IMG/VR virus record: IMGVR_UViG_3300045988_006838
Coordinates: 1-43,643 of that record
Length of the DNA: 43,643 nucleotides
Strand: one strand, 5' to 3'
Source of the DNA: a virus
Each line of letters opens with the position of its first letter. The stretch's first letter is position 1. A program made the position numbers and the translations under genes. Shown one piece after another: positions 3,399 to 33,407 of the stretch. The notes below the pieces were generated by a model, which saw only the letters and a list, made by a program, of their open reading frames with translations, was not told the DNA's origin and searched no databases.

Positions 3399-3773
3399 TT
3401 ACACCTCAGAAAACGAAACGGCAAGCCCCGTCCAGTATTCTACGCCGGTTGCGCCCTTGCCGCGATACACTACGCTTTCCGTAGTCACATAAGCGTTTAT
3501 TGCGCGGTATTCTCCGGTTCTTGGGTCAAAATAGCGTAGCAAAACAGGCTGCTCATCGTAAAGCGCGGACAAAAGCGCGGACTGCTGGTCATCTGTCAGT
3601 GGCATGCACACCGCAGTCCCACGCGCTTTTACCGCGACAATGTCCTCAAGGGCATCCCCGTTTTTCATCGTGCCGCCGTTTCCGCCGTCGATCTTTTCAT
3701 AAGAGCAGGAAAAGCCGGTCGGCGTGAAATACGGCGTGAAATCAACGCCGTTAATCGTGATCGTTTTTGCCAT
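3399..3773 (-). CDS. Small tail component (distal-tail-protein position)
   Basis: 124 aa; RBS GAGGTGA; immediately downstream of tape measure gene. Confidence 0.35.
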   Translation of the reverse strand: MAKTITINGVDFTPYFTPTGFSCSYEKIDGGNGGTMKNGDALEDIVAVKARGTAVCMPLTDDQQSALLSALYDEQPVLLRYFDPRTGEYRAINAYVTTESVVYRGKGATGVEYWTGLAVSFSEV

Positions 3774-13716: not shown

Positions 13717-14994
13717 CTATCTGTTCCAAATGGGGGTATACTCGCTCTTGCCCTTTTGGCCGGGCACTCTCCATATCGATTCCGTCGCATATCGGCACGC
13801 ATCAATATGGTGGTTATTTGCGTCAGGATAACCGCTGATAATCTCTCCATCGCGGTTCCTTTCGTACTCATAGGAAATAAATTCTTCTGCCGTTTTGGGG
13901 CATCTCGTGCGGTCAATTACAATGCTTGATAATCCCTGCAACCACTGCATAGAGCGATCAATACTTCCCGGCCCTTTTCTTGCGCTAATGCAGCGTAAGC
14001 CGAATTTTTGATAGTCCGCAACGCTCTTAGGCTCTGCGCCGTCTGCTGTGATGAGGTCATCGCGGGTCAGGCCATAATCAAGCAACATATCAGCCGTTTC
14101 TTTGTTCCTCTTTTTGTTTGCGGTCATTTCCGCAAAAATGTATAACGTGCGTCTTGCAGCGTCGTAATAGCAACGGTTGAATGCCCACGGGTCGGGGAAA
14201 TACCCCCAGTCAACGCCGTTATAAATGCGGTCAAACTGCGAAACTTCTTCGTCGGTAATTTCTCGCAGCTCCAAATTTTCAAACACATTTCCGCCCGTGC
14301 CGACCGGAATGCCGAGATACTCATGCTGGTACGCTCTCTCGTCCGTGGCCTTGAGGTGTTCCGCTTCATCAATAAACTGCTGCCCCAGCCATTCAGGCGG
14401 CGCTTGCAGATACGTTGACTTGTGGCACAGGCGGTCAGCGCGTTCCTCCAAACTGTCTTTGTTTGCCCAGTTGTCGCGAGAGATCGGCGGGTTATAGCTC
14501 TCAAAGTTCCAAAACACCGAGCCGCCGCGCATGGTCGACTGCAAAATGTTTCGGATTTCTGCACGTCCGGCAAACTGGTCTTTCTCTTCAAAGTGAGTCA
14601 CGGCGATATAGCCAAACGGGACTTTGATAGACTTAATCTTCATGGGGTCATCAGCTCCGCGAAACATGATCTTCTGCCCCGTCGGCTTATAAATCAGCTC
14701 CATCGGGGAAACCTTGGCTTCCCAGTACGCCGCCATACCCAGCTCACCGATTGCCCAGATATACTGCGCATAGACGCTATCGCGGATCGTGTTTGCCACC
14801 TTACGCAGCACCAGCGCGTGTGTTCCCGGATTGTTTATCAGCAGCAGGGGGACGAGTACAGACACCGTGGAGGATTTCAGAGAACCGCGCCCACCGCTGA
14901 AATCGTAGTGCGTATGACCGTGGCGGAACACATCGTGAGCCACGTCGTAGAACGCAGAGCCGATTTTTTCAGACAGGCGGATGTCAGGCATCAA
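13717..14994 (-). CDS. terL: Terminase large subunit (PBSX/XtmB-like)
   Basis: 425 aa; Walker A-like SGGRGSLKSS; nuclease half with DWGY...DP and HHIDACRY; overlaps small subunit gene. Confidence 0.9.
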   Translation of the reverse strand: MMPDIRLSEKIGSAFYDVAHDVFRHGHTHYDFSGGRGSLKSSTVSVLVPLLLINNPGTHALVLRKVANTIRDSVYAQYIWAIGELGMAAYWEAKVSPMELIYKPTGQKIMFRGADDPMKIKSIKVPFGYIAVTHFEEKDQFAGRAEIRNILQSTMRGGSVFWNFESYNPPISRDNWANKDSLEERADRLCHKSTYLQAPPEWLGQQFIDEAEHLKATDERAYQHEYLGIPVGTGGNVFENLELREITDEEVSQFDRIYNGVDWGYFPDPWAFNRCYYDAARRTLYIFAEMTANKKRNKETADMLLDYGLTRDDLITADGAEPKSVADYQKFGLRCISARKGPGSIDRSMQWLQGLSSIVIDRTRCPKTAEEFISYEYERNRDGEIISGYPDANNHHIDACRYATESIWRVPGQKGKSEYTPIWNR

Positions 14995-15310
14995 TTATCA
15001 CCTTGACACCTTCTGTGTTGATGTTCTGCTCAACAATATCCTTCTGGTCAAGGTACTGCTTGCCAAGCCAAATGGCCATATTCGCGTTCTTTTCAGCCAA
15101 TCGCCACTGACTCCGGCGCAGTGAAATTTTCCCCGCTCCGCGCTTTTGCTTAAATACCTCGGAAAAACTGGCATGATAAGTGCGTTTACACCAACTATCC
15201 AGTGTTTTATCAGTCACGTCAAACCAGCCGCAGATTTCCTCAAGCGTGCATTGCAGGCCGCAGAGGTTCTCGAACTGCTTCTGATCTATTTCCTTTCTTG
15301 GCCTTGCCAT
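14984..15310 (-). CDS. terS: Terminase small subunit (HTH type)
   Basis: 108 aa; RBS AAAGGAGGG; ARPRKEID...TLEEICGWFDVTDKTLDSW...MAIWLGKQYLDQKD pattern; immediately upstream of terL. Confidence 0.6.
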   Translation of the reverse strand: MARPRKEIDQKQFENLCGLQCTLEEICGWFDVTDKTLDSWCKRTYHASFSEVFKQKRGAGKISLRRSQWRLAEKNANMAIWLGKQYLDQKDIVEQNINTEGVKVIIDA

Positions 15311-15405: not shown

Positions 15406-16599
15406 TCAATCGTCATTGATCAACACCGCCTTTTTGCCCGTGAACTTTTCCCAGCGATCAATAATTACATCGGCATACTTTGGGTCAAACTCCATGCAGT
15501 ATGCGTGTCTTCCGTTCTGCTCTGCCGCCATAATGGTGGTGCCGGAACCAGCAAACAGGTCAAGAACATTTTCTCCCGGCTTGCTGGAACACTGCATCTG
15601 ATAATCAAACAGTTTGATGGGCTTCATTGTTGGGTGCTCCGCAGACTTAACCGGCTTATCAAAATTGAGCACCGTGGTCTGCTTCCTGTTTTTGAAAAAA
15701 TAGTGCTTGTGCCCGTCTTTCCATCCGTAAAGGCACGGCTCGTGAGCATCGTCCTCAATTTCGTTTTCACCGTACAGGCAAGGCTCATGTTTCCACTGAA
15801 AGTCTTGCCTTCCCATCACAAGCGAATTTTTTACCCAGATCAAGCACTGGCGCACGCGAAGCATCGCATCTTTGCACGCGCCCCTAAAGTTGTACCCCTC
15901 TCTATCAGCATGCCAAATATAAAACGGTGCGCCAGGCTTCATAACCATTGCTGCGTTAAAAAATGCATTCGTCAAAAACCGCCTAAATGCCGTGTCTTCC
16001 ATGTTGTCGTTTTTGATCTTACCGGCGGTGCCCTTATAGTCCACATTGTAAGGCGGATCGGTAAGCAACAAATCCATTTGTGCCCCCCCCGCAAGCTTTT
16101 GTACGTCTGTCAAATACGTGCTGTCTCCGCACATAAGGCGATGGTCTCCGAGCTGGTACACATCGCCCAGTTTGCTCTTCGGCTCTGCCGGTAAAACGGG
16201 ATCGTAGTTGTCCTCTACCACTGACGTGTCGAGTTCATCCCGCAGACCCCAATCAAAGTCAAAAGCAGACAAGTCAAGCCCCGGCAGCTCATCAGCCAGC
16301 AGGTCAAAGTCCCAATCGCTCTCGTTGCTCTTGTTATCCACCAGCCGCAGGGCGTTCACCTGTTCCGGCGTGAGATCGTCCACGCAGACACTCGGTACTT
16401 CTTCCATACCTAGCTTCTGCGCTGCCAGAGCGCGGCAATGCCCGATTACGATAACGCCGTCGCGGTCAATTACAATCGGCTGCACGAACCCGTACTGTTT
16501 AATGCTTTCGGCCACATTGTTGATTTGCCGTCTATCGTGCTTCTTGGCATTTGCAGCATACGGAATAATATCCGACAGCCGCTTGTTTTTTACTTCCAT
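15406..16599 (-). CDS. ParB-like nuclease domain fused to DNA methyltransferase (N6-A/N4-C, DPPY type)
   Basis: ATG 16599 with AAGGAGG RBS (track start 16728 is an extension); ParB-N motifs (IVIGHCRALAA), TDPPYNVDY motif IV, EHPTMKP, DLFAGSGTT motif I. Confidence 0.9.
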   Translation of the reverse strand: MEVKNKRLSDIIPYAANAKKHDRRQINNVAESIKQYGFVQPIVIDRDGVIVIGHCRALAAQKLGMEEVPSVCVDDLTPEQVNALRLVDNKSNESDWDFDLLADELPGLDLSAFDFDWGLRDELDTSVVEDNYDPVLPAEPKSKLGDVYQLGDHRLMCGDSTYLTDVQKLAGGAQMDLLLTDPPYNVDYKGTAGKIKNDNMEDTAFRRFLTNAFFNAAMVMKPGAPFYIWHADREGYNFRGACKDAMLRVRQCLIWVKNSLVMGRQDFQWKHEPCLYGENEIEDDAHEPCLYGWKDGHKHYFFKNRKQTTVLNFDKPVKSAEHPTMKPIKLFDYQMQCSSKPGENVLDLFAGSGTTIMAAEQNGRHAYCMEFDPKYADVIIDRWEKFTGKKAVLINDD

Positions 16600-16675
16600 G
16601 TGGCCTCCTTTGTCTGACGCACCGGCCTCCCACCACTGGCCTTTGTCATTGGCACGTCTGTACCCGGCTTTCGCC

Positions 16676-16930
16676 TCACCTAATATGTTCCCGCCGTGAG
16701 CTATGTGCCCCGCAAGCATACATAGCATCCACCACGGCGAAATCCTTTGCAGTAAGCAGACTATTTGAGACGCATCCCATACAGCGGTCTGTCAGCGCAA
16801 TCACACCGCGCTGCGCCTTTTCATCAGCCGCACACTGTTTTTGCGGATTAACTGTCCGCCGCTGTGGCCACAGCTTGTGTGCACTTAACTTCTCGCGCTT
16901 CCTCGCCCGCTTGTGTGACTGGTACGGCAT
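16676..16930 (-). CDS. Possible small basic Cys-containing protein (84 aa); alternatively part of a non-coding RNA
   Basis: MPYQSHKRARKREKLSAHK...DRCMGC...; weak RBS; only ORF in an otherwise ORF-free stretch. Confidence 0.25.
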   Translation of the reverse strand: MPYQSHKRARKREKLSAHKLWPQRRTVNPQKQCAADEKAQRGVIALTDRCMGCVSNSLLTAKDFAVVDAMYACGAHSSRREHIR

Positions 16931-17340
16931 TGCAGTCCTGCCCTGCTTTAGCGCTTCAGGGAAAGCCCCCGTCACTCGCTGTGGTCTCCCCTTACGGGGC
17001 ACCTATGCCGCATATAGTGCGTTTTCTTTCGGCTTCCGCCTATCAGCCTTGAGGAATACGCACAACCCTTCGGAACTCCACGGTAAACGCATGGCGGAGC
17101 GCCTACCGCTTCAATGTTCTGGCACACTTTCGGGCGGGACGCTATGCCACTTGCCCACGGTAGTGCCGCACCGCTTTTTTCGTCGCGGATTCTGTCTCTA
17201 CAGGCTCCGTATTGGCCAGCCGTTTTCTATGTGTCGGCACACTGTGGCCGGATGGGAGGCGCGACCTCCCGCCCCTGATCGTGGGGTAGCTCACGCAGTC
17301 CGGCGTATACCCGTCATATACCGCTGGCGGGTAAGCGGTT
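16931..17340 (-). ncRNA. Candidate large structured non-coding RNA (ORF-free, hairpin-dense; phage/tRNA-adjacent context as for ROOL/GOLLD-type RNAs)
   Basis: No credible ORF on either strand; many local helices on minus strand (GGGAGGucgcgCCUCCC, CCCCguaaGGGG, CCGGCC...GGCUGG enclosing GUGUgccgACAC, CGGUA...UACCG). Confidence 0.3.
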
Positions 17341-17368
17341 GAAAGGAAAAAGATGTCCTACAGGACTG

Positions 17369-17452
17369 TGGAGGCATTGGCGGGAATCGAACCCTGCATC
17401 GTCCATCGGTGGCGGTTTCCTCCGTGCGCTCTTCCAACTGAGCTACAATGCC
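17369..17452 (-). tRNA. tRNA-like gene with non-canonical anticodon arm (isotype undeterminable)
   Basis: Minus strand GGCATTG TA GCTC AGTTGGAA GAGC ... GGGTTCGATTCCC ... CAATGCC T CCA: perfect 7-bp acceptor, D-arm, T-loop, encoded CCA; 30 nt instead of 22 between D and T arms; T-stem needs a bulged A. Confidence 0.5.
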
Positions 17453-17564
17453 GTGTGTGCCCGCCGCCGTGCAACGACGGGCCACAAAAAGGAGGGAGAA
17501 TGAAAAATGAATGCAGTTAAAACAAACGAATGGAGGTGTTGTAAGGCTGCACGTCCTCATAACT

Positions 17565-17573
17565 ATTGTACCA
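17565..17573 (-). promoter_or_regulatory. Extended -10 promoter (TGGTACAAT) upstream of the tRNA-like gene
   Basis: Minus strand ...AAAAGTGTGGTACAATAGTT in an AT-rich intergenic patch; no good -35; about 95-nt leader containing an 8-bp GC hairpin (17454..17484). Confidence 0.4.
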
Positions 17574-17630
17574 CACTTTTTGCAATGTTTATAGTGCAAA
17601 AACGCGGATTTTCTAAAGTAGTTATTCTAA

Positions 17631-17783
17631 TTAAACACTTTTGCTGCATTTCAGTTTATAGATTTCATTTTCCAGTTCATCCACAAGCTTATCCCTCGCC
17701 TGATAGCGCCCCCAAAGCGCCAATATGGTTTGTTTCGCCTCATCCAGCGCCTTGATTTGGCGGTCGATGTCAGCTTGGTTCAC
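17631..17783 (-). CDS. Small coiled-coil protein (50 aa), not in ORF track
   Basis: GTG 17783 with GGAAAGGAG RBS; NQADIDRQIKALDEAKQTILALWGRYQARDKLVDELENEIYKLKCSKSV. Confidence 0.4.
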   Translation of the reverse strand: MNQADIDRQIKALDEAKQTILALWGRYQARDKLVDELENEIYKLKCSKSV

Positions 17784-17928
17784 GCCGTATCAACTCCTTT
17801 CCGCATTGTGGGCAGTAATTGCTTTTGCTGCCCGTCACAAGGCCACAGTAGGGGCACTCGATCCGTATCGCCCATTTGGGCCAATCTTTTCCCTCTGTGG
17901 ACTTGTCGCGTATAATCCATTTATCCAT
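17770..17928 (-). CDS. Small zinc-ribbon protein (52 aa), not in ORF track
   Basis: ATG 17928 overlaps upstream TAA (TAATG); ...ECPYCGLVTGSKSNYCPQCGKEL. Confidence 0.45.
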   Translation of the reverse strand: MDKWIIRDKSTEGKDWPKWAIRIECPYCGLVTGSKSNYCPQCGKELIRREPS

Positions 17929-18191
17929 TACACATTTGGCTCTTTGCGCTCTCCGTAGCTACAAAAGTCTGTGGGGTTTCTGCGCGGCGTCAAGCTTCCG
18001 CACACCACATAGCGGCTAAAGCAAAAACCATCGTCCCTCGTTCCTTTTTCCCAAAAAATGCAGTCCTTGCACAAAACTACGGCAGGCGAGACTTTCATTA
18101 TCGCAGTCAACCCATCAACATCTACGTTGCGGTTGCTTGCAACAATAGCGTCAATTGCGTCTTGCTTCTTGATATATTCAATTTTTTTCAT
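17928..18191 (-). CDS. Hypothetical Cys-rich protein, paralogue of 18790..19023
   Basis: 87 aa; shares ...CKDC...DFCSYGERKE C-terminal signature with the other copy. Confidence 0.55.
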   Translation of the reverse strand: MKKIEYIKKQDAIDAIVASNRNVDVDGLTAIMKVSPAVVLCKDCIFWEKGTRDDGFCFSRYVVCGSLTPRRNPTDFCSYGERKEPNV

Positions 18192-18789: not shown

Positions 18790-19023
18790 CTATTCCTCCT
18801 TTCTCTCACCGTATGAGCAGAAATCGTCATACCCGCTGGCAACCATCCGACAAGCGTATGTTTTGAACTTGCGGCAATCGCGGCACCGCACCACTGACTC
18901 CACATCGGCCGGAAACATATCCGCAAGCGCACGTTTGGCATCCGTCATAGTCGCCGTGGGCTTTGTCACTTCTATATGGGTCAGCCGCGCAATCGCTACA
19001 GACTGGTCAATGTACTTCGCCAT
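18790..19023 (-). CDS. Hypothetical Cys-rich protein, paralogue of 17928..18191
   Basis: ATG 19023 with GGGAGGTGGAG RBS; ...VVRCRDCRKF...DFCSYGERKEE. Confidence 0.55.
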   Translation of the reverse strand: MAKYIDQSVAIARLTHIEVTKPTATMTDAKRALADMFPADVESVVRCRDCRKFKTYACRMVASGYDDFCSYGERKEE

Positions 19024-19172
19024 CACTCCACCTCCCTAATCTCGTCCTCGCCGAACTCCACGCCGTCATTGATACACTCCAAGACGCTTTCAACAAAGGC
19101 CTCATCGGCACAGGCGTTTAGGTACCTGATAACCTCGTTGGCTAATTGCATGATGGTTTGTTTACTGCTCAT
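19023..19172 (-). CDS. Small acidic protein (49 aa), not in ORF track
   Basis: ATGA overlap with MazG-like stop, TGATG overlap with next start; MSSKQTIMQLANEVIRYLNACADEAFVESVLECINDGVEFGEDEIREVE. Confidence 0.45.
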   Translation of the reverse strand: MSSKQTIMQLANEVIRYLNACADEAFVESVLECINDGVEFGEDEIREVE

Positions 19173-33128: not shown

Positions 33129-33407
33129 ATTTAAGGAGGTGGACTTTTTGACCAACCTTTTGACTTTGCCCGTTCCAGACCGAAGTACCGGCGCAATGCG
33201 ATAGGGTCAGGCTGCCCCAGAACTGCCAAAGTGAGCGGTGCGTCACAGAAACGGAAGTCCGTTTTTCGTCAGACTGGCATTTCCGAGCCGCAAGAATGAC
33301 GGCTTGGCCATCGGCTAAGGATTGCCGGTGAACAGTCTGTGCAGCGCACTCTGGTAACAAATCTGGGAGGAAAACGCCCGCAAACGGACTGCGGGTGTTT
33401 TTCTTTT
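33115..33407 (+). ncRNA. Candidate roughly 290-nt transcript bounded by promoter 33080 and terminator 33375..33407 (contains an 18-codon mini-ORF)
   Basis: AAGGAGGTGG plus TTG mini-ORF (MTNLLTLPVPDRSTGAMR, 33136..33192); CGCCCGCAaacggacTGCGGGTG plus TTTTTCTTTT. Confidence 0.35.
33375..33407 (+). terminator. Rho-independent terminator inside the switch region
   Basis: 8-bp stem (one G-U), 7-nt loop, T-rich tail tttttctttt. Confidence 0.6.

What the first reader, a model, noticed from the sequence alone, without database searches (positions are those of the whole stretch)
16600..17368. About 770 nt with almost no coding potential between a tRNA-like gene and the ParB-methyltransferase: candidate large structured RNA
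In a genome where minus-strand genes are otherwise packed with overlaps, 17003..17368 has no minus-strand ORF at all. 16676..16930 holds only one doubtful 84-codon ORF with a weak RBS. Read on the minus strand, the stretch is dense in GC helices with small loops. Examples are GGGAGG-ucgcg-CCUCCC (about 17254-17272), CCCC-guaa-GGGG (GNRA loop, about 16988-17000), CCGGCC...GGCUGG enclosing GUGU-gccg-ACAC, CGGUA...UACCG enclosing GGCG-cuc-CGCC, and CAGCGC-ggugugauu-GCGCUG. Large ornate RNAs of the GOLLD and ROOL classes are typically found in phages and prophages of Firmicutes and often sit next to tRNA genes, which is exactly this context. I cannot recall their consensus well enough to claim membership. 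It could equally be a new RNA, or a long structured 5' UTR or pac region.
Basis: partly seen in the sequence, partly recalled or inferred. Interest (0 to 1): 0.65.

Follow-up and report, generated by a model that had tools for sequence, protein, structure and literature searches.

The report
Phage array of small structured RNAs
The "empty" 770 bases in this gut-phage genome are a string of separate small folded RNAs, not one giant RNA: one is the known but unexplained drum RNA, and next to it sits a widespread tRNA-shaped RNA that is missing from the RNA family database.

Summary
The gap is real and non-coding. No ORF in it matches Pfam or PHROGs, and the 84/108-codon ORF is not conserved in 107 related contexts. 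It is not a GOLLD/ROOL-type large RNA: no Rfam hit even at E<=5.

It is a minus-strand array of small RNA modules downstream of an aberrant tRNA-like gene.
- **Drum:** 17014-17119 is a full-length drum RNA (RF02958, 78.7 bits against a threshold of 43).
- **M:** 16920-17011 abuts drum. It is a 92-nt cloverleaf-shaped RNA with a 7-8 bp acceptor-like stem and an encoded CCA. It is absent from Rfam but present in at least 119 IMG/VR contigs. Covariation is strong: 14 of 27 pairs are compensatory against 2.7±1.2 in shuffles.
- **A, B, D:** these modules also covary, on smaller samples.

In relatives the modules change order and neighbours. M lies inside tRNA arrays. In 12 loci skipping-rope RNA occupies the slot just 5' of M that drum occupies here.

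Best reading: a co-transcribed tRNA-slot ncRNA array in front of the packaging genes. Inferred, not shown: host tRNA-processing enzymes cut it at the tRNA-like elements. The function of the released RNAs is unknown.

Folding energy alone is not above chance. The support comes from covariation.

The parts
17565..17573 (-). Promoter-like extended -10 element (TGGTACAAT). It lies in a block that is 100% conserved in L009 and L029 and begins right after the stop codon of the upstream gene.
   Evidence: Read from the sequence and from alignment A2. The simple two-hexamer scan does not call it. Inferred, not shown.
17369..17452 (-). Aberrant tRNA-like gene. It has a canonical 7-bp acceptor stem, D arm and T arm (GGUUCGAUUCC), discriminator U and an encoded CCA. 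A non-canonical stretch of about 30 nt replaces the anticodon and variable arms.
   Evidence: Rfam tRNA 35.9 bits against a threshold of 29. ARAGORN rejects it. Fold. The same variant occurs in L009, while L029 has a normal tRNA-Asn(GTT) with the same acceptor and D arms at this position.
17247..17304 (-). Module A, a three-way junction. The closing stem GCCGGA/UCCGGC encloses a small hairpin, CCCC-ACGAUCA-GGGG and GGGAGG-UCGCG-CCUCCC.
   Evidence: Recurs in 22-38 loci. In 19 distinct sequences, 6 of 20 pairs show compensatory changes and almost none are broken.
17121..17178 (-). Module B, a nested hairpin (GGCAC...[GGGC...GCCC]...GUGCC) with the conserved 5' sequence AAAAGCGG. One nucleotide separates it from drum.
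   Evidence: Recurs in about 21-28 loci. In many of them it lies directly 3' of M rather than 5' of drum. In 10 distinct sequences the RNAalifold consensus has 5 of 18 pairs compensatory; 4 of these lie in the nested hairpin described here and 1 in a weakly supported 5' helix (cols 2-5/12-15, 1-2 broken of 10).
17014..17119 (-). Drum RNA (Rfam RF02958), full length.
   Evidence: 78.7 bits against a gathering score of 43, E=2.8e-13, model positions 1-112 of 112, no non-canonical pairs flagged. Near-identical copies in L009, L029, L201 and L204.
16920..17011 (-). Module M, a 92-nt cloverleaf-shaped (tRNA-shaped) RNA. P1 is 17011-17005 paired with 16930-16924 and can extend by U17012-A16923. P2 is 17003-17001 plus 16999-16996 paired with 16991-16988 plus 16985-16983, with a GUAA loop. 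P3 is 16980-16977 paired with 16953-16950, with an internal loop and the hairpin 16971-16957. P4 is 16946-16943 paired with 16935-16932, with the loop GGCAGGA. The 3' tail is A-CCA (16923-16920).
   Evidence: Not in Rfam. At least 119 IMG/VR contigs carry it. RNAalifold finds the four-way junction on its own. 96.7% of cells are paired and 14 of 27 pairs are compensatory, against 2.7±1.2 in shuffles (0 of 500) and 2-5 in slid controls. The covariance model R1 finds exactly one copy in the window, at 118 bits. CCA follows P1 in 79 of 96 contexts.
16800..16919 (-). Module D, a domain of about 120 nt. The closing stem is GUCACAC/GUGUGAU. The core three-way junction (16830-16882) is GCACAC[GCUGUGGCCACAGC][GCGGA-CAGUUAA-UCCGC]GUGUGC.
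   Evidence: Found in 20 loci, 13 distinct sequences. 4 of 35 pairs are compensatory, including the outer stem and both levels of the core junction. Moderate support.
16746..16799 (-). Module C, a recurrent block of about 54 nt (CAGAC...[GGGA-UGCG-UCUC]...GUCUG). Structure not established.
   Evidence: Recurs in about 15 loci in different neighbourhoods: after M, after B, or after D. Too few distinct sequences to test covariation.
16600..16745 (-). Leader of the ParB-methyltransferase gene, with the RBS AAGGAGG at 16604-16610. No established structure.
   Evidence: Sequence. Only 4 distinct homologues and no compensatory pairs. No minus-strand terminator or sigma-70-type promoter called.
15406..16599 (-). 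ParB_N / N6_N4 DNA methyltransferase fusion gene. It is the first gene of the packaging block and is followed by TerS (14984-15310) and TerL (13717-14994).
   Evidence: Pfam. PHROGs terminase small subunit.

Best explanation
The gap is a tRNA-slot array of small non-coding RNA genes in a temperate gut Clostridia phage. It sits between the early/replication genes and the packaging operon.

Read 5' to 3' on the minus strand, it holds:
1. an aberrant tRNA-like gene
2. module A
3. module B
4. a genuine drum RNA
5. module M, a tRNA-shaped RNA that ends in CCA
6. modules D and C
7. the leader of the ParB-methyltransferase gene

**Shown.**
- The identity of drum.
- The conserved four-way-junction fold of M, and the folds of A, B and D.
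- The independence of the modules, which shuffle between relatives.
- The absence of a conserved ORF.
- Strand specificity: conserved G-U pairs would be A-C mismatches on the other strand.
- M's habitual place among tRNA genes, and its position directly 3' of drum or skipping-rope RNAs.

**Inferred.**
- The array is made as one transcript from the extended -10 promoter near 17565-17573.
- Host tRNA-maturation enzymes cut it: RNase P at the 5' side of the tRNA-like gene and of M, and RNase Z or exonucleases at the 3' side.
- M would then give drum a defined 3' end in place of the terminator that usually follows drum. RNA polymerase would be free to read on into the ParB-methyltransferase and terminase genes.

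The conserved loops of M suggest it also works as a tRNA mimic in its own right. What the released RNAs do is not known.
For: **Drum.** 78.7 bits against a gathering score of 43, full length.

**M.**
- RNAalifold predicts the cloverleaf independently.
- 14 of 27 pairs are compensatory against 2.7±1.2 in shuffles, 0 of 500 shuffles reach this, and slid controls give 2-5.
- At least 119 viral contigs carry it.
- CCA follows P1 in 79 of 96 contexts.

**M sits among tRNA genes.**
- L001: M lies between tRNA-Gln and tRNA-Thr/Trp.
- L205: M lies inside a five-tRNA array.
- L121: a tRNA starts 8 nt after M.
- Of the 47 Rfam-scanned loci with M, about 41 carry a same-strand tRNA; it lies upstream of M in about 38 (typically 100-500 nt away) and only downstream in L049, L095 and L186; L014, L032, L033, L037, L102 and L202 show none.

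**The slot 5' of M.** Skipping-rope ends 3-4 nt before M in 12 loci. Drum abuts M in the window and in the Oscillospiraceae MAG L201.

**Module independence.** Boundaries fall sharply at the helix ends. M has at least 18 classes of 5' neighbour and at least 12 classes of 3' neighbour. The order of B and M is reversed between loci.

**Other modules.** A, B and D covary.

**No coding signal**.

**No minus-strand terminator** between the array and the ParB-methyltransferase gene.

**Position.** 51 of 94 M contexts lie within 1.5 kb upstream of ParB-methyltransferase, TerS or TerL.
Against: - There are no transcript data. The promoter, co-transcription and RNase P/Z cleavage are all inferred.
- M fails tRNA detectors and lacks a canonical T-loop, so RNase P recognition is plausible but untested.
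- In L014, L044 and L052 M lacks CCA and is followed by a terminator.
- The loops and junctions of M are far more conserved than a mere processing signal would need.
- Most copies come from closely related phages, many from a single IMG/VR dataset. Covariation counts are therefore inflated by relatedness. P3 of M was fixed by the search pattern, so its lack of variation is uninformative.
- Folding energies are not significantly better than shuffles.
- Support for modules C and the leader is weak.
Confidence: 0.62

Rival explanations
1. One large ornate RNA of the GOLLD/ROOL type, or a new RNA of that size class, spans the whole ~770 nt and folds as a single unit.
For: The phage and tRNA-adjacent context matches what is reported for GOLLD and ROOL (PMC5737381). 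The block 17014-17642 is about 90-94% conserved as a unit in L009 and L029, and nearly invariant from ~17345 to 17014.
Against: No GOLLD, ROOL, HEARO or raiA match even at E<=5. Each module closes on itself. Modules occur singly, in different orders and with many different neighbours. The whole-region folding z-score is only -1.44.
Confidence: 0.05
2. The stretch is a long structured 5' leader that acts in cis on the ParB-methyltransferase gene and the late packaging operon. It could work as a processive antiterminator or as a regulator of translation or stability, and it is not cut into separate RNAs.
For: No minus-strand terminator or promoter is called between the array and the gene. M lies 217-979 nt upstream of a ParB-methyltransferase in 34 of 94 contexts. 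In distant relatives another RNA motif, D12-methyl (RF02950), sits directly 5' of the ParB-methyltransferase gene.
Against: 43 of 94 M contexts have none of these genes downstream. M occurs inside pure tRNA arrays (L001, L205) and is followed by a terminator in L014, L044 and L052. Weinberg et al. 2017 describe drum as only rarely found in 5' UTRs. This reading may still hold for module C and the last ~150 nt.
Confidence: 0.18
3. The region encodes a small protein, either the 84/108-aa ORF 16676-16930/17002 or the 155-aa plus-strand ORF.
For: The ORFs exist mechanically.
Against: No Pfam or PHROGs family matches. The frame is not kept open in relatives: median 46 aa, with variable stops. The substitutions are base-pair compensatory, which selection for RNA structure predicts and protein coding does not. 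The ORF spans modules that recombine independently.
Confidence: 0.02
4. It is a DNA-level element, such as a pac/cos site, an origin or a recombination hotspot, whose inverted repeats act in double-stranded or single-stranded DNA.
For: It lies just upstream of the terminase genes. Mosaic breakpoints cluster at module edges.
Against: Many conserved G-U pairs would be A-C mismatches on the other strand: 13 and 16 sequences at two pairs of M, and further pairs in A, B and D. One module is a recognised RNA family. The modules are also found far from terminase genes.
Confidence: 0.04

Closest known systems
Drum RNA motif (Rfam RF02958; Weinberg et al. 2017, PMC5737381)
   Same: Window 17014-17119 is a full-length, high-scoring member with all consensus helices formed. 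Its function is unknown, as it is for the family.
   Different: The family is described as followed by Rho-independent terminators and associated with particular nearby protein genes. Here no terminator follows. The tRNA-shaped module M starts 2 nt after the match, and no DUF3800 gene is in the window.
Skipping-rope RNA motif (Rfam RF02924)
   Same: In 12 related phage loci it occupies exactly the slot that drum occupies here, ending 3-4 nt before M. The 2017 paper already grouped it with drum on genomic-context grounds.
   Different: There is no skipping-rope match in this window. The two motifs have no detectable similarity in sequence or structure.
GOLLD and ROOL large ornate RNAs
   Same: Phage or prophage location next to tRNA genes.
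   Different: No covariance-model match. Here there are several self-contained modules of 50-120 nt that shuffle, not one RNA of 500-800 nt.
Phage T4 RNAC and RNAD (species 1 and 2 stable RNAs)
   Same: These are small stable phage RNAs whose function is still unknown (PMC9697503). From my own knowledge, they are encoded within the T4 tRNA gene cluster and matured together with the tRNAs. This is the same kind of arrangement as M among phage tRNA genes.
   Different: No sequence relationship was tested or is expected. T4 infects E. coli. Processing of M has not been shown.
tRNA-like 3'-end processing elements (MALAT1/mascRNA type) and tRNA punctuation
   Same: A tRNA-shaped element directly 3' of another RNA could let RNase P create that RNA's 3' end without a terminator. 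This rests on my own knowledge of the eukaryotic system and is the mechanism proposed here for drum-M and skipping-rope-M.
   Different: The known system is eukaryotic. Nothing of the sort has been demonstrated for M, and M's strongly conserved loops suggest a function of its own.
D12-methyl RNA (Rfam RF02950)
   Same: It is a structured RNA directly 5' of the ParB-methyltransferase gene in distant relatives L036 and L040.
   Different: It is not present in this window.

Membership tests
drum RNA (RF02958) | Covariance-model score at or above Rfam's gathering score, over the full model | tested here: met
   78.7 bits against 43, model positions 1-112 of 112, E=2.8e-13 for the whole window and 9.7e-15 for the sub-region.
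drum RNA (RF02958) | All consensus helices can form | tested here: met
   No non-canonical pair is flagged in the cmscan alignment. The single-sequence minimum-energy fold reproduces the helices.
drum RNA (RF02958) | Rho-independent terminator on the 3' side (typical of the family according to PMC5737381) | tested here: not met
   No minus-strand terminator is found in 16300-18000. Module M begins 2 nt after the drum match.
drum RNA (RF02958) | Association with a particular protein-coding gene nearby (supplementary text of PMC5737381) | not testable with these tools
   The supplementary text is not held. No DUF3800 domain was found among the 40 proteins scanned; neither it nor any other Pfam/PHROGs family was found among the ORFs in and next to the region.
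GOLLD / ROOL / HEARO / raiA | Match to the family covariance model | tested here: not met
   No match at gathering score, nor at E<=5 with permissive filters on 16300-17800.
GOLLD / ROOL | One large RNA with a fixed order of domains | tested here: not met
   Modules occur separately and in different orders.
tRNA (module M, 16920-17011) | Recognised by tRNA detectors | tested here: not met
   ARAGORN finds 0 genes. There is no Rfam tRNA match over M at E<=5.
tRNA (module M, 16920-17011) | 7-bp acceptor stem followed by a discriminator and CCA | tested here: met
   P1 has 7 pairs, 6 of them with compensatory changes. CCA follows in 79 of 96 contexts.
tRNA (module M, 16920-17011) | Canonical D loop, 7-nt anticodon loop and T loop (UUCRANY) | tested here: not met
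   Alignment A3 shows a GNRA tetraloop in the D-like arm, a 5-nt loop on an arm with an internal loop, and a T-like loop GGCAGGA on a 4-bp stem.
tRNA (gene at 17372-17452) | Rfam tRNA score at or above the gathering score | tested here: met
   35.9 bits against 29.
tRNA (gene at 17372-17452) | Canonical anticodon arm, accepted by ARAGORN | tested here: not met
   ARAGORN finds nothing. 24 nt sit where the model expects 17. The fold shows no 5-bp stem with a 7-nt loop.
protein-coding gene (84/108-aa ORF) | ORF conserved in relatives, or a match to a protein family | tested here: not met
   Median open frame of 46 aa in 107 contexts. No Pfam or PHROGs family matches.

The most novel reading that the evidence does not exclude
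M is a tRNA-mimic 'handle'. A group of gut Clostridia phages attach interchangeable cargo RNAs to it: drum, skipping-rope, and at least a dozen other 5' neighbours. The host's tRNA machinery then matures these chimeric precursors. The released RNAs act as anti-defence decoys, for example against DUF3800-type RNase H-like nucleases that are genomically linked to drum-like motifs, or against systems that sense or cut tRNA 3' CCA ends. This would give drum and skipping-rope their first function and biogenesis pathway.
Probability: 0.1. Interest if true: 0.85.

Novelty: new variant of a known kind. Interest (0 to 1): 0.52.

Why it matters
Drum and skipping-rope are two of the 'sophisticated' orphan RNA motifs described in 2017 and still have no known function.

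**What this adds.** In one phage lineage the two motifs occupy the same slot, directly 5' of a conserved tRNA-shaped RNA that ends in CCA, inside tRNA-gene arrays.
- This supports the idea that they are functional analogues.
- It gives a concrete, cheap test of how they are made: RNase P cleavage of drum-M and skipping-rope-M precursors.

**M as a candidate family.** M is a well-supported RNA family that is abundant in human-gut phage contigs and absent from Rfam. If it is a tRNA mimic, it adds to the growing picture of phages manipulating tRNA biology.

**For annotation.** The result shows that a 770-nt 'gap' should be labelled as several ncRNA genes and not as one large RNA.

Tried and rejected
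- **Large-RNA families.** GOLLD, ROOL, HEARO and raiA gave no Rfam match at the gathering score or at E<=5.
- **Folding energy as evidence.** The whole region and most modules are not significantly more stable than dinucleotide shuffles. I did not use energy as support.
- **Coding potential.** No Pfam or PHROGs match for any ORF in the gap, and the ORF is not conserved. I ran no further search on it, because ORFs called over conserved DNA would prove nothing.
- **Specific link between drum/M and ParB-methyltransferase.** 16 distant ParB-methyltransferase loci have no drum, skipping-rope or M. The link reflects genome position in one lineage and is not a functional pairing.
- **DUF3800 gene near drum.** None in the window.
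- **More distant relatives of M.** The covariance model R1 found none in 85 loci. A genome-wide pattern scan gave only 4 real hits, in Oscillospiraceae/Clostridiales MAGs plus one bin labelled Staphylococcaceae, and one chance hit.
- **Drum covariation in these phages.** The five copies are nearly identical and carry no information.
- **Supplements.** Those of Weinberg 2017 and Fremin 2023 are not held. I could not read the drum-associated gene class, and I could not check whether M is one of the 8,495 unnamed IMG/VR candidate RNAs.
- **K-turn or sarcin-ricin motif in M's P3 internal loop (AGUGA/AAG).** By inspection it fits neither consensus, so I make no claim.
Full report
**1. Observation**

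The window is a temperate siphovirus-like phage of gut Clostridia.
- It encodes integrases, an SPP1-type portal, a Terminase_3 TerL, SSB, NinB and Sak.
- The nearest isolates by TerL are Blautia and Clostridium phages at about 50% identity. The closest records are uncultured human-faecal contigs.

The finding lies between two features.
- On one side is a tRNA-like gene at 17372-17452 (minus strand; Rfam tRNA 35.9 bits).
- On the other is a ParB_N/N6_N4-methyltransferase gene. Its true start is the ATG at 16599-16597, behind the RBS AAGGAGG. TerS and TerL follow it.

The gap has only mechanical ORFs.
- None matches Pfam or PHROGs.
- In 107 distinct related contexts the frame of the 108-aa ORF has a median open length of 46 aa, with stops at varied places.

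So the non-coding observation stands.

Folding energy does not distinguish the region from shuffles. The z-score is -1.44 on the minus strand and -2.33 on the plus strand.

**2. What Rfam sees**

A scan of the whole window gives a full-length drum RNA (RF02958) at 17014-17119 on the minus strand. It scores 78.7 bits against a gathering score of 43. The same scan finds the tRNA-like gene and, elsewhere, a FuFi-1 RNA at 33189-33404.

A permissive scan of 16300-17800 (E<=5) adds nothing real. There is no GOLLD, ROOL, HEARO, raiA or D12-methyl.

[quoted passage not shown] 2017. The others are skipping-rope, DUF3800-I and FuFi-1. The authors say these motifs are rarely in 5' UTRs and are associated with nearby protein genes (PMC5737381).

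**3. Related loci show a mosaic of modules**

I fetched 80 ParB-methyltransferase loci from IMG/VR and compared them with the window by BLAST. The stretch upstream of the gene is mosaic.

A ~95-nt block, 16919-17015, recurs at 94-98% identity in many loci whose flanks are unrelated. It also occurs in GenBank MT836871 (locus L001), where it lies between tRNA genes. I call this block M.

An alignment of copies with flanks shows that conservation starts and stops exactly at a 7-bp stem, GCGGCAU...AUGCCGY. The stem is mostly followed by a purine and then CCA.

**4. M is a real structured RNA**

This gave 80 distinct sequences.
- On a 38-sequence alignment (A3), RNAalifold independently predicts a four-way junction.
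- For the structure I wrote down, 96.7% of cells pair. 14 of 27 pairs show changes on both sides, against 2.7±1.2 in shuffles (0 of 500). Slid controls give 2-5.
- P3 was fixed by the search pattern, so its invariance is uninformative.
- Conserved G-U pairs make the fold specific to the minus strand.
- The single-sequence minimum-energy fold gives the same cloverleaf.

In window coordinates M runs 17011-16920.
- **P1:** 17011-17005 with 16930-16924. It can extend by U17012-A16923.
- **D-like arm:** capped by GUAA.
- **Long arm:** has an internal loop, AGUGA/AAG.
- **T-like arm:** 4 bp with the loop GGCAGGA.
- **Tail:** A-CCA.

CCA follows P1 in 79 of 96 distinct contexts. The ATG of the '84-codon ORF' lies in the 3' strand of P1.

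M is not a tRNA by any detector and has no Rfam family. A covariance model built from A3 finds one copy in the window, at 118 bits. It finds no divergent copies in distant ParB-methyltransferase loci.

In species-representative genomes M occurs only in Oscillospiraceae or Clostridiales MAGs, plus one bin labelled Staphylococcaceae.

**5. Context of M**

I scanned 47 M-bearing loci with Rfam.
- About 41 carry a tRNA on the same strand. It lies upstream of M in about 38 (typically 100-500 nt away) and only downstream in L049, L095 and L186. L014, L032, L033, L037, L102 and L202 show none.
- L205 has M inside a five-tRNA array.
- In L121 a tRNA starts 8 nt after M.
- Skipping-rope RNA (RF02924) ends 3-4 nt before M in 12 loci.
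- Drum abuts M in the window and in the MAG L201. In L201 the P1 of M carries a compensatory change.

M is not tied to these two motifs.
- Its 100-nt 5' flanks fall into at least 18 classes. Its 3' flanks fall into at least 12 classes.
- In L014, L044 and L052 an intrinsic terminator follows it.
- Of 94 contexts with enough downstream DNA, 34 have a ParB-methyltransferase 217-979 nt downstream, 17 have TerS or TerL, and 43 have none of these.

**6. The rest of the gap**

BLAST coverage and boundary histograms define further recurrent blocks.
- **Module A (17247-17304)** is a three-way junction. 6 of 20 pairs are compensatory in 19 sequences.
- **Module B (17121-17178)** is a nested hairpin. 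The RNAalifold consensus has 5 of 18 pairs compensatory in 10 sequences, 4 of them in the nested hairpin. It lies 5' of drum here but directly 3' of M in many loci.
- **Module D (16800-16919)** is a closed domain with a core three-way junction. 4 of 35 pairs are compensatory in 13 sequences.
- **Module C (16746-16799) and the last ~150 nt** have too few homologues to judge.
- **Not analysed further:** 17179-17246 and 17305-17368. The second includes a weak hairpin followed by a U-run after the tRNA-like gene, which is absent in L009.

The tRNA-like gene has canonical acceptor, D and T arms and a CCA end. Its anticodon region is aberrant. L029 has an ordinary tRNA-Asn(GTT) with the same acceptor and D arms at that position.

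**7. Interpretation**

The data fit an array of independent small RNA genes in the phage's tRNA slot. They do not fit one large RNA.

No minus-strand terminator is called between the tRNA-like gene and the ParB-methyltransferase gene. A conserved extended -10 element (TGGTACAAT, 17565-17573) lies upstream.

From this I infer, but have not shown, three things.
- The array is one primary transcript that runs on into the packaging genes.
- Host RNase P and RNase Z or exonucleases cut it at the tRNA-like elements.
- M therefore supplies the 3' end that a terminator supplies for drum elsewhere.

The near-invariant loops of M suggest it also has a function of its own, perhaps as a tRNA mimic.

T4 RNAC and RNAD are small phage RNAs still of unknown function (PMC9697503). 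From my own knowledge they are encoded in the T4 tRNA cluster. They are the nearest classical analogue.

DUF3800 is linked to drum-like motifs in the 2017 paper. It is now seen as an RNase H-like domain in defence contexts (PMC10910872, PMC7736814, PMC13594972). This makes an anti-defence decoy role conceivable but untested. No DUF3800 gene is in the window.

**8. Novelty and caveats**

The drum copy is a new member of a known family. M, A, B and D are not in Rfam 15.

They could be among the 8,495 unnamed candidate structured RNAs that Fremin et al. 2023 predicted from IMG/VR (PMC10690425). I could not check this.

Most sequences come from closely related phages. The covariation statistics are therefore supportive and are not a formal test.

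Noticed in passing
window 33189-33404 (+): A FuFi-1 RNA (RF02986, 88.1 bits against a gathering score of 59.6) lies in the lysogeny/early region of the same phage. It is a second orphan motif from the same 2017 group as drum.
   Followed up: no
window 17372-17452 (-); L009 830-910; L029 3003-3077: The tRNA-like gene has normal acceptor, D and T arms and a CCA end, but an aberrant stretch of about 30 nt in place of the anticodon and variable arms. ARAGORN rejects it. L029 has a normal tRNA-Asn(GTT) with the same acceptor and D arms at this position. This looks like replacement of the anticodon and T arms, not decay.
   Followed up: partly
L047 3459-3538; L008 3470-3546; L052 3295-3376: Relatives carry unusual tRNAs in this slot. 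ARAGORN calls one with a four-base anticodon (gagt), a tRNA-Ile(AAT) and a tRNA-Asp(ATC).
   Followed up: no
L036 3852-3915; L040 3850-3913: D12-methyl RNA (RF02950, 90-95 bits) sits directly 5' of the ParB-methyltransferase gene in distant relatives. Different phage lineages therefore place different structured RNAs in front of this gene.
   Followed up: no
L006, L007, L082, L098, L112, L123, L145, L157, L163, L164, L194, L197 (for example L082 2349-2443 then M from 2447): Skipping-rope RNA ends 3-4 nt before module M in 12 loci. This is the same position that drum has in the window and in L201.
   Followed up: yes
L009, L029, L044, L049, L052 and L204, the ~60-90 nt immediately 5' of M (for example L029 ~3490-3586): Another recurrent module precedes M in 13 distinct contexts: GAAAACG-UUGAAU-CGUUUUC, CCC-GCAA-GGG, GGGGC-UUAU-GCCCC. 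It was not tested for covariation. In L029 it is part of the ~153 nt that separate drum from M there but are absent from the window.
   Followed up: no
window 17305-17345 (-): CCGCU...AGCGG and UACCCG...CGGGUA could form an H-type pseudoknot just 5' of module A. The stretch is identical in L009 and L029, so there is no covariation to test it.
   Followed up: no
L204 3942-4016 (-); L098 7221-7327 (+): An int-alpA RNA (RF02996, 36.3 bits, just above threshold) lies between drum and M in L204. There is a borderline SpF41 sRNA match in L098.
   Followed up: no
window 17928-18191 and 18790-19026 (-): Two small paralogous ORFs upstream of the array share a C-terminal ...DFCSYGERKE motif. The 87-aa ORF (17928-18191) has no Pfam or PHROGs family; the 78-aa paralogue (18790-19026) was not scanned.
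   Followed up: no
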